DNA of 13,075 nt. It comes from Myxococcales bacterium. GTDB taxonomy: Bacteria > Myxococcota_A > Polyangia > Polyangiales > Polyangiaceae. The notes beneath the pieces were generated by a model. The model worked only from the letters and a program-made list of their open reading frames with translations. It was not told the origin of the DNA and made no database searches. Both the position numbers and the translations under genes were made by a program. This document shows positions 7,435 through 10,317 of the stretch, piece after piece (the stretch's first letter is position 1; each line of letters begins with the position of its first letter). The stretch is from positions 1-13,075 of the forward strand of contig JAAFHV010000255.1 in assembly GCA_013297655.1 (NCBI GenBank). Reading direction: 5' to 3'.

Positions 7435-10317
7435 TCAATCGCTGGTCTCGGCTTCGCCGGCGTCGGCCGCCTCGACCTTCGTGCCGTATCGCGCGCGGAG
7501 GTCGCCGAGGGTGGGCATGACCTTGGTCCCGCCGAGCACCTCGCTAAGAATGGTGCCCACGTCTTTGCCCTTGAAGAGGCTGACGAGGTTCATGTTCTCG
7601 GCGACCTGACCGAGCATGATCTTGTCGCCGAGGGCGGTCATCGCCTCGACGAGGCCGCGCTGAACCGCCTGCCGTTCGGCCACGATCGCCTGCGAGTGGG
7701 CTGCCACGACACGGAGCTCGTGCTCCGTCTTCGCCGCGAGCGCCTCGATTTCGACCGTCGCGAGCAGCCGATCGGCCGCCGCGCGCCCATGCGCGTGATC
7801 CGCGAGGTACCCGAGCTCCGCCGCCTTCGACTCGTGGTCCCGCGCGAGCGCCGCGCGCTGCCCCTCCGCGAGGCGCGCGTCGGCGAGGGCCTGTCGCTCA
7901 CGTGCGACGATCTCCTGGTCTTTTGCCTCCGCGAGGGAGCGCTCGTGGGTCAGCCTGCGCGCCAGGTCGTGGAGCCGCGCCTCGCGCGTCTTGGCCTCCT
8001 CCGCGAGCGCCTGAACCTCCGCGTCGACGACGGCGCGGAGCTTTTGAGAGAGCATGTGCTCTTGCGCCTGTCGGTCGCCGATTTGCAGCGTGACCGACTG
8101 CGTTTGCACCCGCTTCATGAGGTCGGCCACCTCCGGCGCTTCGATCGTCGCGGAGAGCACCTCGACCTCGGTGACGACGGTGGAGTTCTCCGCGAACACA
8201 CGCCCGGGGCGCTGCCCGTCTTTGCGCTCGCCCAAGACGGTGTCGCGCACGGTGGTGTGGATCTGCGGCCATATCGCGGAGAGGGAGAGAGTGCGACAGC
8301 GCCCGCGAATGATCGATCGCAGGTGGTCGACCATCATTTGAATGTAGTTCTCGTGGTTGAACCAGCGATCCTTGTTCTCGGACGCGAAGGTGACCGTGTA
8401 CGAGACCACGATCGCTATCTTCACGAAGTCGGCTGTCTCGATGACGATCATGTCGCTCACGCGGTTTCCGACGGTGCGGAGGAAACACGTCCGGAGCGGG
8501 CTCGCGTCGGATTTCGGGGTGCCGGTCGAGAGCGAGAGCGGGCAGAGCGACTCTTCGTACCCGAGGAGAGTCACACACGGCCCTTCGACGACCCTTCGCG
8601 ACTGCGCCATCGTGACCATGACGGCGGCGTTGTTCGGCACCACGACCGAGATCGCCCACGGGGTCGTGACGGCGGCGCTGGTCGCCTTGTGCGGCTCGCT
8701 CGACGCGATCCATAGGTTCCAATCGGCGGGCGGGACGGTGCGTGTAATCTGCACCTCTTTCCGCGGATCTACCAAGTACGACTGCTTCCCGCGCACGAGG
8801 CGGACCTCGCCGGTCGCGAGATCGCGCACGTAGATGCCGCTCTTCTGATCGATGCCAATCGCCTCGATGAAGACACGTTCGTGATCGTTGCCGACGACGG
8901 CCTGCCCGGTGTCGGGGGAGAGGACCTCGATCTCGTTGAACGGAAAGAAGAAGGTGGACACCCCCGAGAGCAAAATTTCGTCTCCAGGGTAGTAGTGATC
9001 CTTCGCGATCTCTTTCTCGAACGAGAACCCTCGCGGGAGCTTTCGGGTGAGCTCTTCTTTGGAGATCGCGGAGATGATGCGGAGCCAGAGCGCGCGCTGC
9101 GGCAAGAGCTCGTAGGCGTCGTACACGCGGCTCCGCGAGCCCACCGTCATGAACGTGTCGTACGGACCGGGGAACACGCGCGCGGGCCCGAGCTTGATCT
9201 CCCTTTTTCCGTCGGCGTCGACGATGACACAATAGTCTTTCTCGCCGAGCACCACCGCGTTGCGAATGAGGCGCGTCTTCTGCGCTTCTTTCTCCAGCGC
9301 GCGGCGAAGGGCGGGGGAAGAGAACAGTCCCTCCACGTTCGGCGCGGGGCTCGCTCCGGCATAGGGGCCTTGCGCCGCTTGGCCCATAGGGGCGGGTGCG
9401 CGCGCGGGCACGGGCGCCTTCCGGTGGCGCGAGCGGGCCGACTGATTGACGACCGCGTTGGGCACGTTCTGACGTGGAGAGCCTTTGCTCGTCTCCGCGT
9501 CGGCTCCATCGTCGAAGATGACCTGCTCCTGCGCCATCTCTTCGAGGGCAGGCGCGGGGGCCGCGGCGAATGCAGCCGCTCCGATGGCGGCGAGCTCGTC
9601 CCGTGTGTCGGCGGTCGCCTCGGCCTGCATTTGGGCGAGCAGTCGCTGTGCCGTCGCGGCGCTGATTGCTGCTCCCGAGGCGTCGACCGACGTATCCGGC
9701 ACGATGTCGACGCCGGAAGGTGGAATGTAAAACTGGGTATCCAAACCACGAATGACGATGAGCTGGCCGCGGCGGAGCTCCACCTGTCCGAGGGGCACGA
9801 GCCCGCTCGTCACGTCGAGGCTCTCCGCCGTCGCGCGCGTGATACCCGCCGATCGCGCGGTGACCTCGTAAAAGGGCGCCGTCTTGTCGACCTCGCCGTA
9901 CACTTTGACGACGAGATACTGATTCGACGCGAGCTCGTGCGCGTCGCGGACCTCGGCGCGCTGGCCGGGCCGCAGGTAGAAGCTGCACGGCCCCGGGATC
10001 ATCGAGCGGGTGCCATTTCGGAGCGGCCGCGACTCGTTTCTTCCCGGCCTGAACTTGCCATTCGGGGCATTCTCGGTTTCGAGGAGCGGATTCGAGAGAA
10101 CGGCATATTGCGCGTCGCCGAGCTCGACGAGCTGCTGCGGCTTGCCGGTCACGTCCTCGCGGAGGCCTCCCTCGCCGTCGTCGATCACCACCCTGTCGGC
10201 CGCCGTCGGCGACACCATCGTCGGACCGACGTGGAGCGTGACCTCGCCTTTGTCGTCGTCTTGGACCCAAAGGAATTGCCTATCGGTGACCGGTATCTTG
10301 CGACTCGTTCGTTCCAT
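7435..10317 (-). CDS. Major vault protein (MVP) homolog, 960 aa: N-terminal vault-repeat region with a ~130-aa Ala/Pro-rich insertion, shoulder domain, long cap-helix
   Basis: Colinear with human/rat MVP, here written ours/human. N-terminus: MERTSRKIPV..FLWVQDDDKGEVTLHVGP / [32 protein letters not shown]. Repeat 8: KDYCVIVDADGKREIKLG / HNYCVILDPVGPDGKNQLG. SGIYVRDLATGEVRLVRG / EGIYVQDVKTGKVRAVIG. Shoulder: VPNNAAVMVTMAQSRRVVEGP...LSLSTGTPK / [23 protein letters not shown]...LSLSAGRPK. MIVIETADFVKIAIVVSYTVTF / [22 protein letters not shown]. A ~150-aa Ala/Glu/Arg/Leu-rich helical segment follows, as in the MVP cap-helix. ATG at 10317 is preceded by GGAGGGAGAAC (the strongest SD in the window). 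Stop TGA at 7435-7437 with a terminator downstream. GC3-rich throughout. Confidence 0.85.
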   Translation of the reverse strand: MERTSRKIPVTDRQFLWVQDDDKGEVTLHVGPTMVSPTAADRVVIDDGEGGLREDVTGKPQQLVELGDAQYAVLSNPLLETENAPNGKFRPGRNESRPLRNGTRSMIPGPCSFYLRPGQRAEVRDAHELASNQYLVVKVYGEVDKTAPFYEVTARSAGITRATAESLDVTSGLVPLGQVELRRGQLIVIRGLDTQFYIPPSGVDIVPDTSVDASGAAISAATAQRLLAQMQAEATADTRDELAAIGAAAFAAAPAPALEEMAQEQVIFDDGADAETSKGSPRQNVPNAVVNQSARSRHRKAPVPARAPAPMGQAAQGPYAGASPAPNVEGLFSSPALRRALEKEAQKTRLIRNAVVLGEKDYCVIVDADGKREIKLGPARVFPGPYDTFMTVGSRSRVYDAYELLPQRALWLRIISAISKEELTRKLPRGFSFEKEIAKDHYYPGDEILLSGVSTFFFPFNEIEVLSPDTGQAVVGNDHERVFIEAIGIDQKSGIYVRDLATGEVRLVRGKQSYLVDPRKEVQITRTVPPADWNLWIASSEPHKATSAAVTTPWAISVVVPNNAAVMVTMAQSRRVVEGPCVTLLGYEESLCPLSLSTGTPKSDASPLRTCFLRTVGNRVSDMIVIETADFVKIAIVVSYTVTFASENKDRWFNHENYIQMMVDHLRSIIRGRCRTLSLSAIWPQIHTTVRDTVLGERKDGQRPGRVFAENSTVVTEVEVLSATIEAPEVADLMKRVQTQSVTLQIGDRQAQEHMLSQKLRAVVDAEVQALAEEAKTREARLHDLARRLTHERSLAEAKDQEIVARERQALADARLAEGQRAALARDHESKAAELGYLADHAHGRAAADRLLATVEIEALAAKTEHELRVVAAHSQAIVAERQAVQRGLVEAMTALGDKIMLGQVAENMNLVSLFKGKDVGTILSEVLGGTKVMPTLGDLRARYGTKVEAADAGEAETSD

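What the first reader, a model, noticed from the sequence alone, without database searches (positions are those of the whole stretch)
9285..9681. ~130-aa Ala/Pro/Gln-rich low-complexity insertion inside the MVP repeat region
Residues ~213-345 (…SGAAISAATAQRLLAQMQAEATADTR…APVPARAPAPMGQAAQGPYAGASPAPN…ALRRALEKEAQK) have no counterpart in eukaryotic MVP. They interrupt the run of vault repeats just before the repeat that aligns with human repeat 8 (KDYCVIVDADG). In a vault shell, repeat domains line the barrel wall. A disordered insert there would project to the lumen or exterior, a natural place for cargo or partner binding or a lineage-specific decoration. It also means this homolog probably has fewer canonical repeats than the nine of eukaryotic MVP, which would change the barrel height.
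Basis: inference. Interest (0 to 1): 0.5.

Follow-up and report, generated by a model that had tools for sequence, protein, structure and literature searches.

The report
Disordered motif-bearing insert in bacterial vault protein
A myxobacterial relative of the eukaryotic major vault protein carries a real, mostly floppy ~140-residue insertion between two of its wall repeats; the insertion holds one invariant arginine-rich motif that probably acts as a tethered binding site, a modest new variation on a known but poorly studied protein family.

Summary
Window 7435-10317 (-) encodes a 960-aa MVP homologue, and residues ~209-351 (window 9265-9693) are a true insertion. In 86 of 146 aligned MVP-like proteins the flanking residues (D208, R352) are joined by only 5-6 aa.

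A good AlphaFold2 model (repeats pLDDT >90) shows residues 252-327 with pLDDT <50 and no secondary structure. This stretch is flanked by helices at 220-250 and 328-348. The segment is not a degenerate vault repeat.

It is also not featureless. Across 120 Polyangia homologues it has a fixed layout:
- a conserved N-terminal helix
- a linker that is always acidic
- a basic motif, [VI][DN]QSARxRxR(K), with Q292, R295 and R297 invariant
- a Pro/Ala linker
- a conserved C-terminal helix

The repeat after the insert aligns with eukaryotic R6, not R8. The model shows 3+4 = 7 repeats. Insert-less relatives share that count, so the insert does not cause it.

The same junction carries different inserts in other lineages: helical modules, 250-430-aa charged tracts, or an extra repeat. 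In eukaryotes this position holds R4-R5, which is part of the lumenal PARP4 docking zone.

The most likely function is a multivalent, probably lumenal, tether that displays an Arg-rich binding motif. This is inferred, not shown. I rate it a new variant of a known kind, of moderate interest.

The parts
7435..10317 (-). MVP-like (major vault protein homologue) gene, 960 aa plus stop
   Evidence: ORF; translation. Pfam hits: MVP_shoulder E 4.4e-17, Vault_3, Vault_4. phmmer to human/rat MVP, E 7.6e-19. Foldseek to vault structures, E 2.5e-36.
10156..10296 (-). Vault repeat 1 (residues 8-54)
   Evidence: Strands in the AF2 model, pLDDT >90. Weak collinear HMM match of the N-terminus to rat R1-R2, not significant on its own (domain 1).
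9979..10137 (-). Vault repeat 2 (residues 61-113)
   Evidence: AF2 model strands. Weak collinear match to rat R2.
9694..9960 (-). Vault repeat 3 (residues 120-208). It is R3-R5-like by motif (GQLIVIRG..TQFYIPPSGVDIV) and has a long, hypervariable beta2-beta3 loop at residues 140-185.
   Evidence: AF2 model. Family conservation. hhalign to human R3 picks the expected segment but is not significant, Prob 4%.
9265..9693 (-). The insertion as a whole (residues 209-351, 143 aa against 5-6 aa in canonical MVP-like proteins)
   Evidence: Flanking anchors abut in distant homologues. Translation. pLDDT is ~57-62 for residues 211-250, <50 for 252-327, and ~43-71 for 321-350.
9628..9681 (-). Conserved N-terminal helix of the insert, SGAAISAATAQRLLAQM (residues 213-230). 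The model helix extends to residue 250.
   Evidence: G215 and A223 invariant in 84 sequences. Helix 220-250 in the model. Residues 205-233, which include this helix and the preceding anchor, are homologous to the start of the type-B inserts, hhalign Prob 95.7.
9481..9627 (-). Variable acidic linker L1 (residues 231-279)
   Evidence: Length 10-53 aa in 120 homologues. Net charge is negative in 100% of them, median -6. From residue 252 onward pLDDT is <50; residues 231-250 lie in the low-confidence helix.
9418..9480 (-). Conserved basic motif SPRQNVPNAVVNQSARSRHRK (residues 280-300). Consensus: (P/A)R(R)x..[VI][DN]QSARxRxR(K).
   Evidence: Q292, R295 and R297 are invariant in 120/120; R282 in 112, R299 in 116, [VI]290 in 119. 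It is retained in the shortest, 67-aa version of the insert. It is the most positive 15-aa window of the whole protein. Translation.
9334..9417 (-). Variable neutral Pro/Ala/Gly-rich linker L2 (residues 301-328)
   Evidence: Length 11-54 aa, 78% P/A/G/S/Q, median net charge 0. pLDDT <50.
9265..9333 (-). Conserved C-terminal helix of the insert, GLFSSPALRRALEKEAQKTRLI (residues 329-351), which leads into the next repeat
   Evidence: E342 invariant; R338, A340, A345, R349 and L350 at >=90%. Helices 328-333 and 335-348 in the model.
9106..9264 (-). Vault repeat 4 (residues 352-404), equivalent to eukaryotic R6
   Evidence: HMMER alignments of this region to rat/human MVP 274/275-349 or 275-409. 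hhalign to human 273-314, Prob 71%. pLDDT >90.
8878..9105 (-). Vault repeat 5 (residues 405-480), R7-like
8662..8877 (-). Vault repeat 6 (residues 481-552), R8-like
   Evidence: Pfam Vault_4 at 486-535. Aligned to MVP from residue 378.
8467..8661 (-). Vault repeat 7 (residues 553-617), R9-like
   Evidence: Pfam Vault_3 at 558-605. Aligned to MVP ~451-519.
8137..8466 (-). Shoulder (SPFH-like) domain (residues 618-727)
   Evidence: Pfam MVP_shoulder at 618-724, 62.6 bits. Foldseek hits to SPFH-family structures.
7438..8136 (-). Cap helix (residues 728-884) and C-terminal helices (885-944)
   Evidence: AF2 helix 728-884. HMMER alignment to the MVP cap-helix region.

Best explanation
SHOWN. The gene encodes a bacterial MVP-like shell protein from Myxococcota, class Polyangia. 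It has seven vault repeats, a shoulder domain and a cap helix.

Residues 209-351 are a lineage-specific insertion placed exactly at the junction between the third repeat (R3-R5 type) and the fourth repeat (R6 equivalent). Most MVP-like proteins have a 5-6-residue connection there.

The insertion is predicted to be largely disordered, but it is modular. In order it has:
- a conserved helix
- a linker that is always acidic
- an invariant Arg-rich short motif, [VI][DN]QSARxRxR(K)
- a neutral Pro/Ala linker
- a conserved helix that leads into the next repeat

The linkers change freely in length and sequence. The motif, the helices and the charge layout are kept.

INFERRED. If this protein forms a vault-like cage, one copy per subunit would place a ring of flexible tethers near the waist of each half-shell. 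Each tether would display the basic motif.

The motif most likely binds a polyanionic or acidic partner. Candidates are RNA or DNA, polyphosphate, or an acidic protein surface, which could include the shell wall itself. It would therefore act as a built-in cargo or partner docking element.

The tethers probably face the lumen. In the human vault the equivalent inter-repeat junction residues (Q164, R169, D214) are contacted by the lumenal PARP4 MINT domain. The region that occupies this position in eukaryotes (R3-R5) is the PARP4 docking zone.
For: The gene is an MVP homologue:
- Pfam MVP_shoulder, Vault_3 and Vault_4 all score above their gathering thresholds.
- HMMER matches solved MVP structures.
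- Foldseek of the full model against human, rat and rabbit vault structures gives E 2.5e-36.

The segment is a true insertion:
- The pre- and post-anchors abut in about 75 distant representatives.
- 86 of 146 aligned sequences have at most 10 aa between D208 and R352.
- The consensus reads ...IPPTGxEVVPDxxxGxxVRxAVTLE....

It is disordered:
- In a model with repeats at pLDDT >90, residues 252-327 have pLDDT <50 and no secondary structure.
- The segment has no Pfam hit.

It is modular and under constraint:
- Q292, R295 and R297 are invariant in 120/120 homologues of 58-100% identity.
- L1 is net negative in 100% of them, and the motif is net positive in 100%.
- The motif survives in the shortest, 67-aa version of the insert.
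- A recognisable form, [VIT][DE]Q.[AP]R.R[QH], persists down to about 54% identity in named Myxococcota genomes.
- The motif is the most positive 15-aa window of the whole protein.

The junction position is established:
- The repeat after the insert aligns to rat 275-409, i-E 1.1e-17.

The lumenal inference rests on:
- MINT binds MVP R3-5 in the lumen through Q164, R169 and D214 (PMC12280208).
- verifies the human numbering and shows these residues sit at repeat junctions equivalent to query P207/D208 and N353/G358.
Against: There is no experimental evidence that any bacterial MVP homologue forms a cage. No binding partner is identified.

The gene neighbourhood is not conserved, so genomic context gives no clue to a partner.

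The orientation argument is indirect. Model coordinates could not be superposed on a vault structure. The wall is thin, so an exterior projection is not excluded.

The acidic-then-basic layout is universal only within the Polyangia-type inserts, not across the other insert types.

High turnover of the linkers, together with the many unrelated inserts found at the same junction, is also what a merely permissive site would show.
Confidence: 0.55

Rival explanations
1. The insert is a permissive-site spacer or hinge. The repeat junction tolerates insertions, and the segment only adds flexibility or spacing to the stave, with no specific ligand. The conserved motif and helices serve local packing, such as forming a helical-hairpin stalk.
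For: The linkers are hypervariable in length (10-53 and 11-54 aa) and in sequence. The same junction holds unrelated inserts of 12 to 427 aa in other lineages. Both flanking helices are lost together in P0083, which fits a self-contained stalk.
Against: Three residues are invariant and several more nearly so within an otherwise fast-evolving disordered region, across 120 homologues. The charge layout is strictly conserved. The motif is retained even in the 67-aa minimal insert that has lost the helices. That pattern is typical of a functional short linear motif rather than a spacer.
Confidence: 0.2
2. The insert is a self-docking latch. The basic motif binds an acidic patch on the same or a neighbouring MVP subunit, and so stabilises or regulates shell assembly or opening rather than binding cargo.
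For: The human vault interior is described as largely acidic, and MINT docks by electrostatic complementarity on R3-R4 (PMC12280208). The adjacent L1 linker is always acidic, so intra-chain charge pairing is possible.
Against: No covariation or structural contact was tested. The AF2 monomer model gives no confident placement of the motif; pLDDT is <50 there.
Confidence: 0.13
3. The insert is a decayed remnant of a folded helical module. Sister lineages carry such a module at the same junction, and the conserved helices and motif would be its relics.
For: Related clades have conserved helical inserts of about 90-150 aa at this site. One such clade comprises Labilithrix, Nannocystis and Sandaracinaceae, with the core 'QFSVLKNELRHRQDL...RAVMLTALD'. 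The first helix of the Polyangia-type insert is homologous to the first helix of the type-B inserts, hhalign Prob 95.7.
Against: hhalign finds no similarity between the middle of the Polyangia-type insert and the helical modules. The direction of change, decay versus gain, is unknown. This origin story would not exclude a current motif function.
Confidence: 0.1
4. The segment is a diverged but ordinary vault repeat. This is the refutation condition the first reader named.
For: The segment lies between repeats. A few homologues (P0178, P0185) do carry what looks like an extra repeat at this junction.
Against: The model shows no beta strands in the insert beyond two isolated bridge residues (211, 217), and pLDDT is <50 across residues 252-327. 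Ala is 27% and Pro 9% of the segment. It has no Pfam hit, vault repeats included. Canonical homologues join the flanks with 5-6 aa, so no repeat is 'missing' there.
Confidence: 0.02

Closest known systems
Eukaryotic major vault protein (rat/human MVP; PDB 4V60, 9BW5, 9BW6)
   Same: The overall architecture matches: N-terminal vault repeats, an SPFH-like shoulder, a long cap helix and a C-terminal region. Full-length fold similarity is E 2.5e-36. Sequence is collinear from R6 to the cap helix.
   Different: The model shows seven repeats rather than nine: one R3-R5-type repeat instead of three. A ~137-aa disordered, motif-bearing insert sits where eukaryotes have R4-R5. No TEP1, PARP4 or vault RNA is evident in the window. 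Cage formation has not been demonstrated.
Previously noted bacterial MVP homologues in Myxococcales, Cytophagales and Oscillatoriales (Sokolskyi 2019, bioRxiv 10.1101/872010; the phage MVP preprint 10.1101/2023.11.10.566534; Asgard MVP in PMC12962969)
   Same: It belongs to the same family. Prokaryotic MVPs are known to exist and to vary in repeat number, for example five repeats in an Asgard homologue.
   Different: None of these papers, as far as I read them, describes this insertion, its conserved motif, or the junction as an insertion hot spot. Average bacterial MVP length is reported as ~822 aa, against 960 aa here.
PARP4 MINT domain docking on MVP R3-R5 (PMC12280208)
   Same: It concerns the same zone of the stave, near the waist at the R3-R5 repeat junctions. 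The interaction is electrostatic, between a basic element and an acidic one.
   Different: In eukaryotes the basic element belongs to a separate protein that docks onto the wall. Here the basic element is built into the shell protein itself. The analogy is functional only; there is no sequence relationship.
Arginine-rich motifs or arms of viral capsid proteins and RNA-binding peptides (from my own knowledge: bromovirus coat-protein N-terminal arms, the HBV core C-terminal domain, Rev/Tat/N peptides)
   Same: A short Arg-dense peptide (SARSRHRK) sits on a disordered tether attached to a shell-forming protein, with one copy per subunit.
   Different: The element is internal rather than terminal. 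The Arg density is lower. Nucleic-acid binding is untested. The resemblance is a lead, not evidence.

Membership tests
Major vault protein family (MVP-like shell proteins) | MVP shoulder (SPFH-like) domain | tested here: met
   Pfam PF11978 at residues 618-724, E 4.4e-17, 62.6 bits against a cut-off of 25. Foldseek hits to SPFH-family structures through this region.
Major vault protein family (MVP-like shell proteins) | Tandem vault repeats N-terminal to the shoulder | tested here: met
   Vault_3 scores 32.1 bits (cut-off 28.8) and Vault_4 scores 23.3 bits (cut-off 22.9). The AF2 model shows seven beta-repeat units at pLDDT >90. Foldseek to the R1-R7 crystal structure 3gnf gives E 2.8e-14.
Major vault protein family (MVP-like shell proteins) | Long cap helix after the shoulder | tested here: met
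   A continuous helix at 728-884 in the model. It aligns to the rat/human cap-helix region.
Eukaryotic-type vault (MVP sensu stricto) | Nine repeats (R1-R9) | tested here: not met
   Seven repeats by parsing the secondary structure of the model. R6-R9 equivalents are identified by HMMER. Only one R3-R5-type repeat is present.
Eukaryotic-type vault (MVP sensu stricto) | Assembly into a closed two-halved cage (D39 in mammals) | not testable with these tools
   Only monomer prediction was available. No experimental data on bacterial homologues were found in the searched literature.
Eukaryotic-type vault (MVP sensu stricto) | Association with TEP1, PARP4 and vault RNA | tested here: not met
   Pfam scans of 18 candidate ORFs in the window found none of these proteins; the hits were pyrophosphatase, PNPOx-like, Liv-type ABC transporter and epimerase. 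The neighbourhood is not conserved among homologues. This says nothing about genes elsewhere in the genome. No RNA-family search was run.
Vault repeat (as the identity of the 209-351 segment) | Five-stranded antiparallel beta fold and a match to vault repeat HMMs | tested here: not met
   No strands beyond two isolated bridge residues, and pLDDT <50 over 252-327. No Pfam family hit at E<=1.
Intrinsically disordered region bearing a short linear motif | Low predicted order and compositional bias; rapid length and sequence turnover at a fixed position; an embedded short conserved motif | tested here: met
   pLDDT profile. Ala 27% and Pro 9%. Segment length 67-184 aa at a fixed site. Q292, R295 and R297 invariant in 120/120.
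Arginine-rich nucleic-acid-binding motif | Direct binding of RNA or DNA by the Arg cluster | not testable with these tools
   Only the sequence property is shown: net +5 over 21 residues, the most basic window of the protein.

The most novel reading that the evidence does not exclude
These myxobacterial MVP-like proteins may assemble into vault-like cages in which every subunit contributes a lumenal disordered tether with an invariant Arg-rich motif. The motif would directly capture RNA or another polyanion. This would be a self-contained bacterial ribonucleoprotein cage, in which the shell protein itself does the job that separate minor vault proteins docked at R3-R5 do in eukaryotes. The R3|R6 junction would then be the evolutionary 'cargo-interface slot' of the whole MVP family. 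Different lineages would have filled it differently: with helical modules, charged tracts, extra repeats, or, in eukaryotes, R4-R5 plus MINT docking.
Probability: 0.2. Interest if true: 0.7.

Novelty: new variant of a known kind. Interest (0 to 1): 0.4.

Why it matters
Vault function is a long-standing puzzle, and bacterial MVP homologues are almost unstudied.

This analysis shows one repeat junction, at the position where eukaryotes have R4-R5, to be a family-wide insertion hot spot. In the Polyangia it carries an invariant basic motif on a floppy tether.

That gives a concrete, mutable handle (R295, R297, or deletion of the insert) for asking what bacterial vault-like proteins bind or enclose. 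It also suggests that the cargo-docking belt of eukaryotic vaults has older roots.

For vault engineering, the result points to a naturally permissive site for internal insertions.

The finding is incremental rather than surprising, because lineage-specific disordered inserts in repeat proteins are common.

Tried and rejected
1. The first AF2 run used only close homologues (84 sequences, 59-89% identity). It gave a poor model, mean pLDDT 56, with the repeats unresolved. I replaced it with a run on a diverse 86-sequence alignment, mean pLDDT 80.9.

2. A 146-sequence alignment was too large to submit for structure prediction.

3. hhalign of the Polyangia-type insert against the helical-module inserts found only the first helix to be homologous. 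The middle showed no similarity. The idea that the insert is a degenerate helical domain is therefore unsupported beyond that helix.

4. hhalign of repeat 3 against human MVP 108-314 picked the expected R3 segment but was not significant, Prob 4%. The assignment of repeat 3 to the R3-R5 type therefore rests on motif resemblance and the fold model only.

5. A simple regex for the motif failed in representatives at <=54% identity. Visual inspection later showed relaxed versions in some of them.

6. Conserved gene neighbourhood: none found.

7. DNA tandem repeats as the origin of the low complexity: none found.

8. A taxonomy look-up through cluster members gave almost no names. The genome scan gave names instead.

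9. The afdb50 fold library was unavailable. Model coordinates are not exposed to scripts, so inward versus outward orientation could not be computed.

10. The idea that an acidic-then-basic layout is shared by all insert types is rejected. It holds in 100% of the Polyangia type but not in the other types.

11. The PspA_IM30 hit in the giant insert of P0123 may reflect coiled-coil compositional bias. I did not pursue it.
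Full report
**What is there**

The window is about 67% GC. Its longest ORF, 7435-10317 on the minus strand, encodes a 960-aa protein.

The protein is a genuine major vault protein (MVP) homologue:
- Pfam finds MVP_shoulder (618-724, E 4.4e-17), Vault_3 (558-605) and Vault_4 (486-535), all above their curated cut-offs.
- phmmer aligns residues 355-882 with human MVP 274-793, E 7.6e-19.
- A full-length AlphaFold2 model has human, rat and rabbit vault structures as its best Foldseek matches, E 2.5e-36. SPFH-family cages follow, matching through the shoulder and helix.

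**Is the segment real, and is it an insertion?**

It is translated in this frame. GC3 stays at 0.77-0.85 through it, and there is no DNA tandem repeat. Composition is Ala 27% and Pro 9%, against Ala 10% elsewhere in the protein. Gln is only about 7%.

A word-indexed search found 435 homologues. The best 120 are 58-100% identical and come mostly from Polyangiaceae and Polyangia. All 120 carry a segment at the same place. Measured from residue 205 to 356, its length ranges from 67 to 184 aa.

An exhaustive HMMER search of 1.84 billion cluster representatives found 926 relatives. In about 75 of the distant full-length relatives (30-35% identity, 820-890 aa), the sequence before the segment (query 101-212) and the sequence after it (345-480) abut directly.

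In a 146-sequence alignment, 86 sequences have at most 10 residues between the equivalents of D208 and R352, typically 'xxGxYV'. The family consensus reads ...GQLIVIxGxDxSFYIPPTGxEVVPDxxxGxxVRxAVTLExLEYC....

So residues 209-351 (window 9265-9693) are a true insertion of about 137 extra residues at a repeat-repeat boundary.

**Structure**

A first model built from close homologues only was poor. With a diverse 86-sequence alignment the model reached mean pLDDT 80.9. Residues 11-210 and 351-730 are mostly above 90, apart from the variable loop at about 161-180.

Within the insert:

| Residues | pLDDT | Predicted structure |
|---|---|---|
| 211-250 | ~57-62 | helix 220-250 |
| 252-327 | <50 | none |
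| 328-348 | ~43-71 | helices |

The insert matches no Pfam family.

Parsing the model's secondary structure gives:
- three beta repeats before the insert: 8-54, 61-113, and 120-208 with a long beta2-beta3 loop
- four repeats after it: 352-404, 405-480, 481-552 and 553-617
- the shoulder at 618-727
- a cap helix at 728-884
- C-terminal helices

That is seven repeats rather than nine.

**Which repeat follows the insert**

Three HMMER comparisons align KDYCVIVDADG... with rat/human MVP residues 274-349, and one extends to 409 (i-E 1.1e-17).

Residues 485-552 correspond to R8 and 553-617 to R9. The N-terminus gives a weak collinear match to R1-R2 that is not significant on its own.

Repeat 3 ends in ...GQLIVIRG..TQFYIPPSGVDIV. 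This resembles the ...[22 protein letters not shown] ending of eukaryotic R3-R5, but hhalign could not make the match significant.

The insert thus sits where eukaryotic MVP has R4-R5. The lower repeat count is shared with insert-less relatives, so it is a property of this bacterial lineage and not a consequence of the insert. Variable repeat number in prokaryotic MVPs has been reported before: an Asgard homologue has five (PMC12962969).

**The insert is modular, not featureless**

Across the Polyangia-type homologues the layout is fixed:

1. A conserved helix, SGAAxSAAAARQLLAQL (213-230).
2. A variable linker of 10-53 aa that is net negative in 100% of sequences, median -6.
3. A basic motif, (P/A)R(R)x...[VI][DN]QSARxRxR(K), at residues 280-300. 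Q292, R295 and R297 are invariant in 120/120. R282 is kept in 112 and R299 in 116.
4. A neutral linker of 11-54 aa that is 78% Pro/Ala/Gly/Ser/Gln.
5. A conserved helix, LxxxLxSxAVRRALExEARQARLIR, leading into the next repeat (E342 invariant).

The shortest homologue, with 67 aa at this site, has lost both helices but keeps the acidic stretch and the motif. The motif is the most positively charged 15-residue window of the whole protein. Relaxed forms, [VIT][DE]Q.[AP]R.R[QH], persist in named Myxococcota genomes down to about 54% identity.

**The junction is a family-wide hot spot**

At the same junction, other lineages carry different inserts:
- a conserved helical module of about 100-120 aa (P0131-P0145)
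- a variant that combines the Polyangia-like first helix with a helical module (P0129, P0137, P0155)
- an insert of about 90-105 aa with the very conserved core QFSVLKNELRHRQDL...RAVMLTALD and an Arg-rich tail (Labilithrix, Nannocystis, Sandaracinaceae, Bradymonadia)
- giant charged tracts of 251-427 aa; one of them scores above threshold for PspA_IM30, which may be a coiled-coil artefact
- in two representatives, 44-45 residues that look like an extra vault repeat

Profile comparison links only the first helix of the Polyangia type to the type-B inserts (Prob 95.7) and finds nothing for the middle region.

**Taxonomy and context**

A scan of one genome per GTDB species found 111 loci. Nearly all are Myxococcota, including Polyangium, Byssovorax, Minicystis, Nannocystaceae, Labilithrix and Sandaracinaceae. 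A few MAGs are labelled Planctomycetota or Thermoanaerobaculia.

The gene neighbourhood is not conserved. In the window and its closest relative the neighbours are a Liv-type ABC transporter and an epimerase. In Minicystis the neighbour is an OPT transporter, and in P. spumosum a MutS-like gene. Genomic context therefore points to no partner.

**Mechanism (inferred)**

The pattern of fast-evolving linkers, a strictly kept charge layout and an invariant short basic motif is that of a functional disordered tether displaying a short linear motif. If the protein forms a vault-like cage, one tether per subunit would form a ring near the waist.

The orientation could not be computed, because model coordinates are not exposed. 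An indirect argument favours the lumen:
- In the human vault-PARP4 structure, the lumenal MINT domain contacts MVP R3-R5 through Q164, R169 and D214, by electrostatic complementarity (PMC12280208).
- verified the human numbering (...EEVLD214LVD217AVILTEK...VEVVEIIQ164ATIIR169Q).
- Those residues are inter-repeat junction positions equivalent to query P207/D208 and N353/G358.

I therefore consider a lumenal, multivalent docking element for a polyanion or an acidic partner the most likely function. My confidence is about 0.55 for the whole statement. It is about 0.9 or more for the structural and evolutionary part, and about 0.35-0.4 for the binding function.

The rivals are:
- a permissive spacer or hinge (0.2)
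- a self-docking latch (0.13)
- a relic of a helical module (0.1; not exclusive of the others)
- a diverged repeat (0.02)

**Novelty**

Bacterial MVP homologues are already known (bioRxiv 10.1101/872010; 10.1101/2023.11.10.566534; PMC12962969). In the library I could search, none of these papers describes this insertion, its motif or the junction hot spot.

I rate it a new variant of a known kind, of moderate interest. Its value is as a handle for experiments on what bacterial vault-like proteins bind.

Noticed in passing
window 9778-9837 (-), residues 161-180 of the MVP-like protein: This is a second hypervariable spot, inside repeat 3 in its beta2-beta3 loop. Identity among close homologues is only 0.18. 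In distant homologues the loop expands to long acidic, low-complexity tracts (sequences). In eukaryotic R3-R5 this loop carries an extra hairpin (PMC2752026).
   Followed up: partly
window 8998-9027 (-), residues 431-440: This is a third variable loop, in repeat 5. The gap fraction is 0.36 and identity 0.26 among close homologues.
   Followed up: no
P0123 residues 280-446 (a homologue, not in the window): The giant 327-aa insert at the same junction in this 1129-aa relative scores above the Pfam gathering threshold for PspA_IM30, E 2.2e-11, 44 bits against 33.9. This may be coiled-coil compositional bias. If real, it would be an ESCRT-III-like module inside a vault-like protein.
   Followed up: no
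L069-L082 (Labilithrix, Nannocystis, Sandaracinaceae and Bradymonadia loci), insert site: A sister clade at 37-42% identity carries a different insert of about 90-105 aa at the same junction. It has a strikingly conserved core, 'QFSVLKNELRHRQDL...QRAVMLTALD', followed by an Arg-rich tail. This looks like an uncharacterised small helical module.
   Followed up: partly
P0178 and P0185 (homologues), insert site: At this junction there are 44-45 residues, 'AVKLEEGEFCELQKSDGSRRLEKGPNLVFPE...', that look like an additional vault repeat. This suggests that repeat number itself varies at this junction.
   Followed up: no
window 10550-11695 (-): A 381-aa ORF lies directly upstream of the MVP-like gene on the same strand. 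It has no Pfam hit and a lipoprotein-like N-terminus (...LLLALSCK...). The closest relative's contig has a 354-aa gene with no Pfam hit at the same upstream position; the two were not compared. There is no same-strand gene at that position in Minicystis rosea or Polyangium spumosum.
   Followed up: partly
window 4280-7298 (+): Liv-type branched-chain amino-acid ABC transporter genes: a permease (BPD_transp_2) and two ATPases. They are convergent with the MVP-like gene and syntenic in the closest relative. These appear to be ordinary housekeeping genes.
   Followed up: yes
window 6-425 (+), 1031-1597 (-), and ~11760-12670 (+): An inorganic pyrophosphatase fragment, a PNPOx-like protein, and an NAD-dependent epimerase with DUF1731 (the C-terminal part of the long ORF 10010-12670). 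These are ordinary genes.
   Followed up: yes
P0188 (homologue): Insert-less MVP-like proteins occur in Candidate Phyla Radiation bacteria (Candidatus Uhrbacteria). With 926 cluster representatives found, the family is far more widespread in bacteria than the 'few Bacteria' stated in the recent literature.
   Followed up: partly
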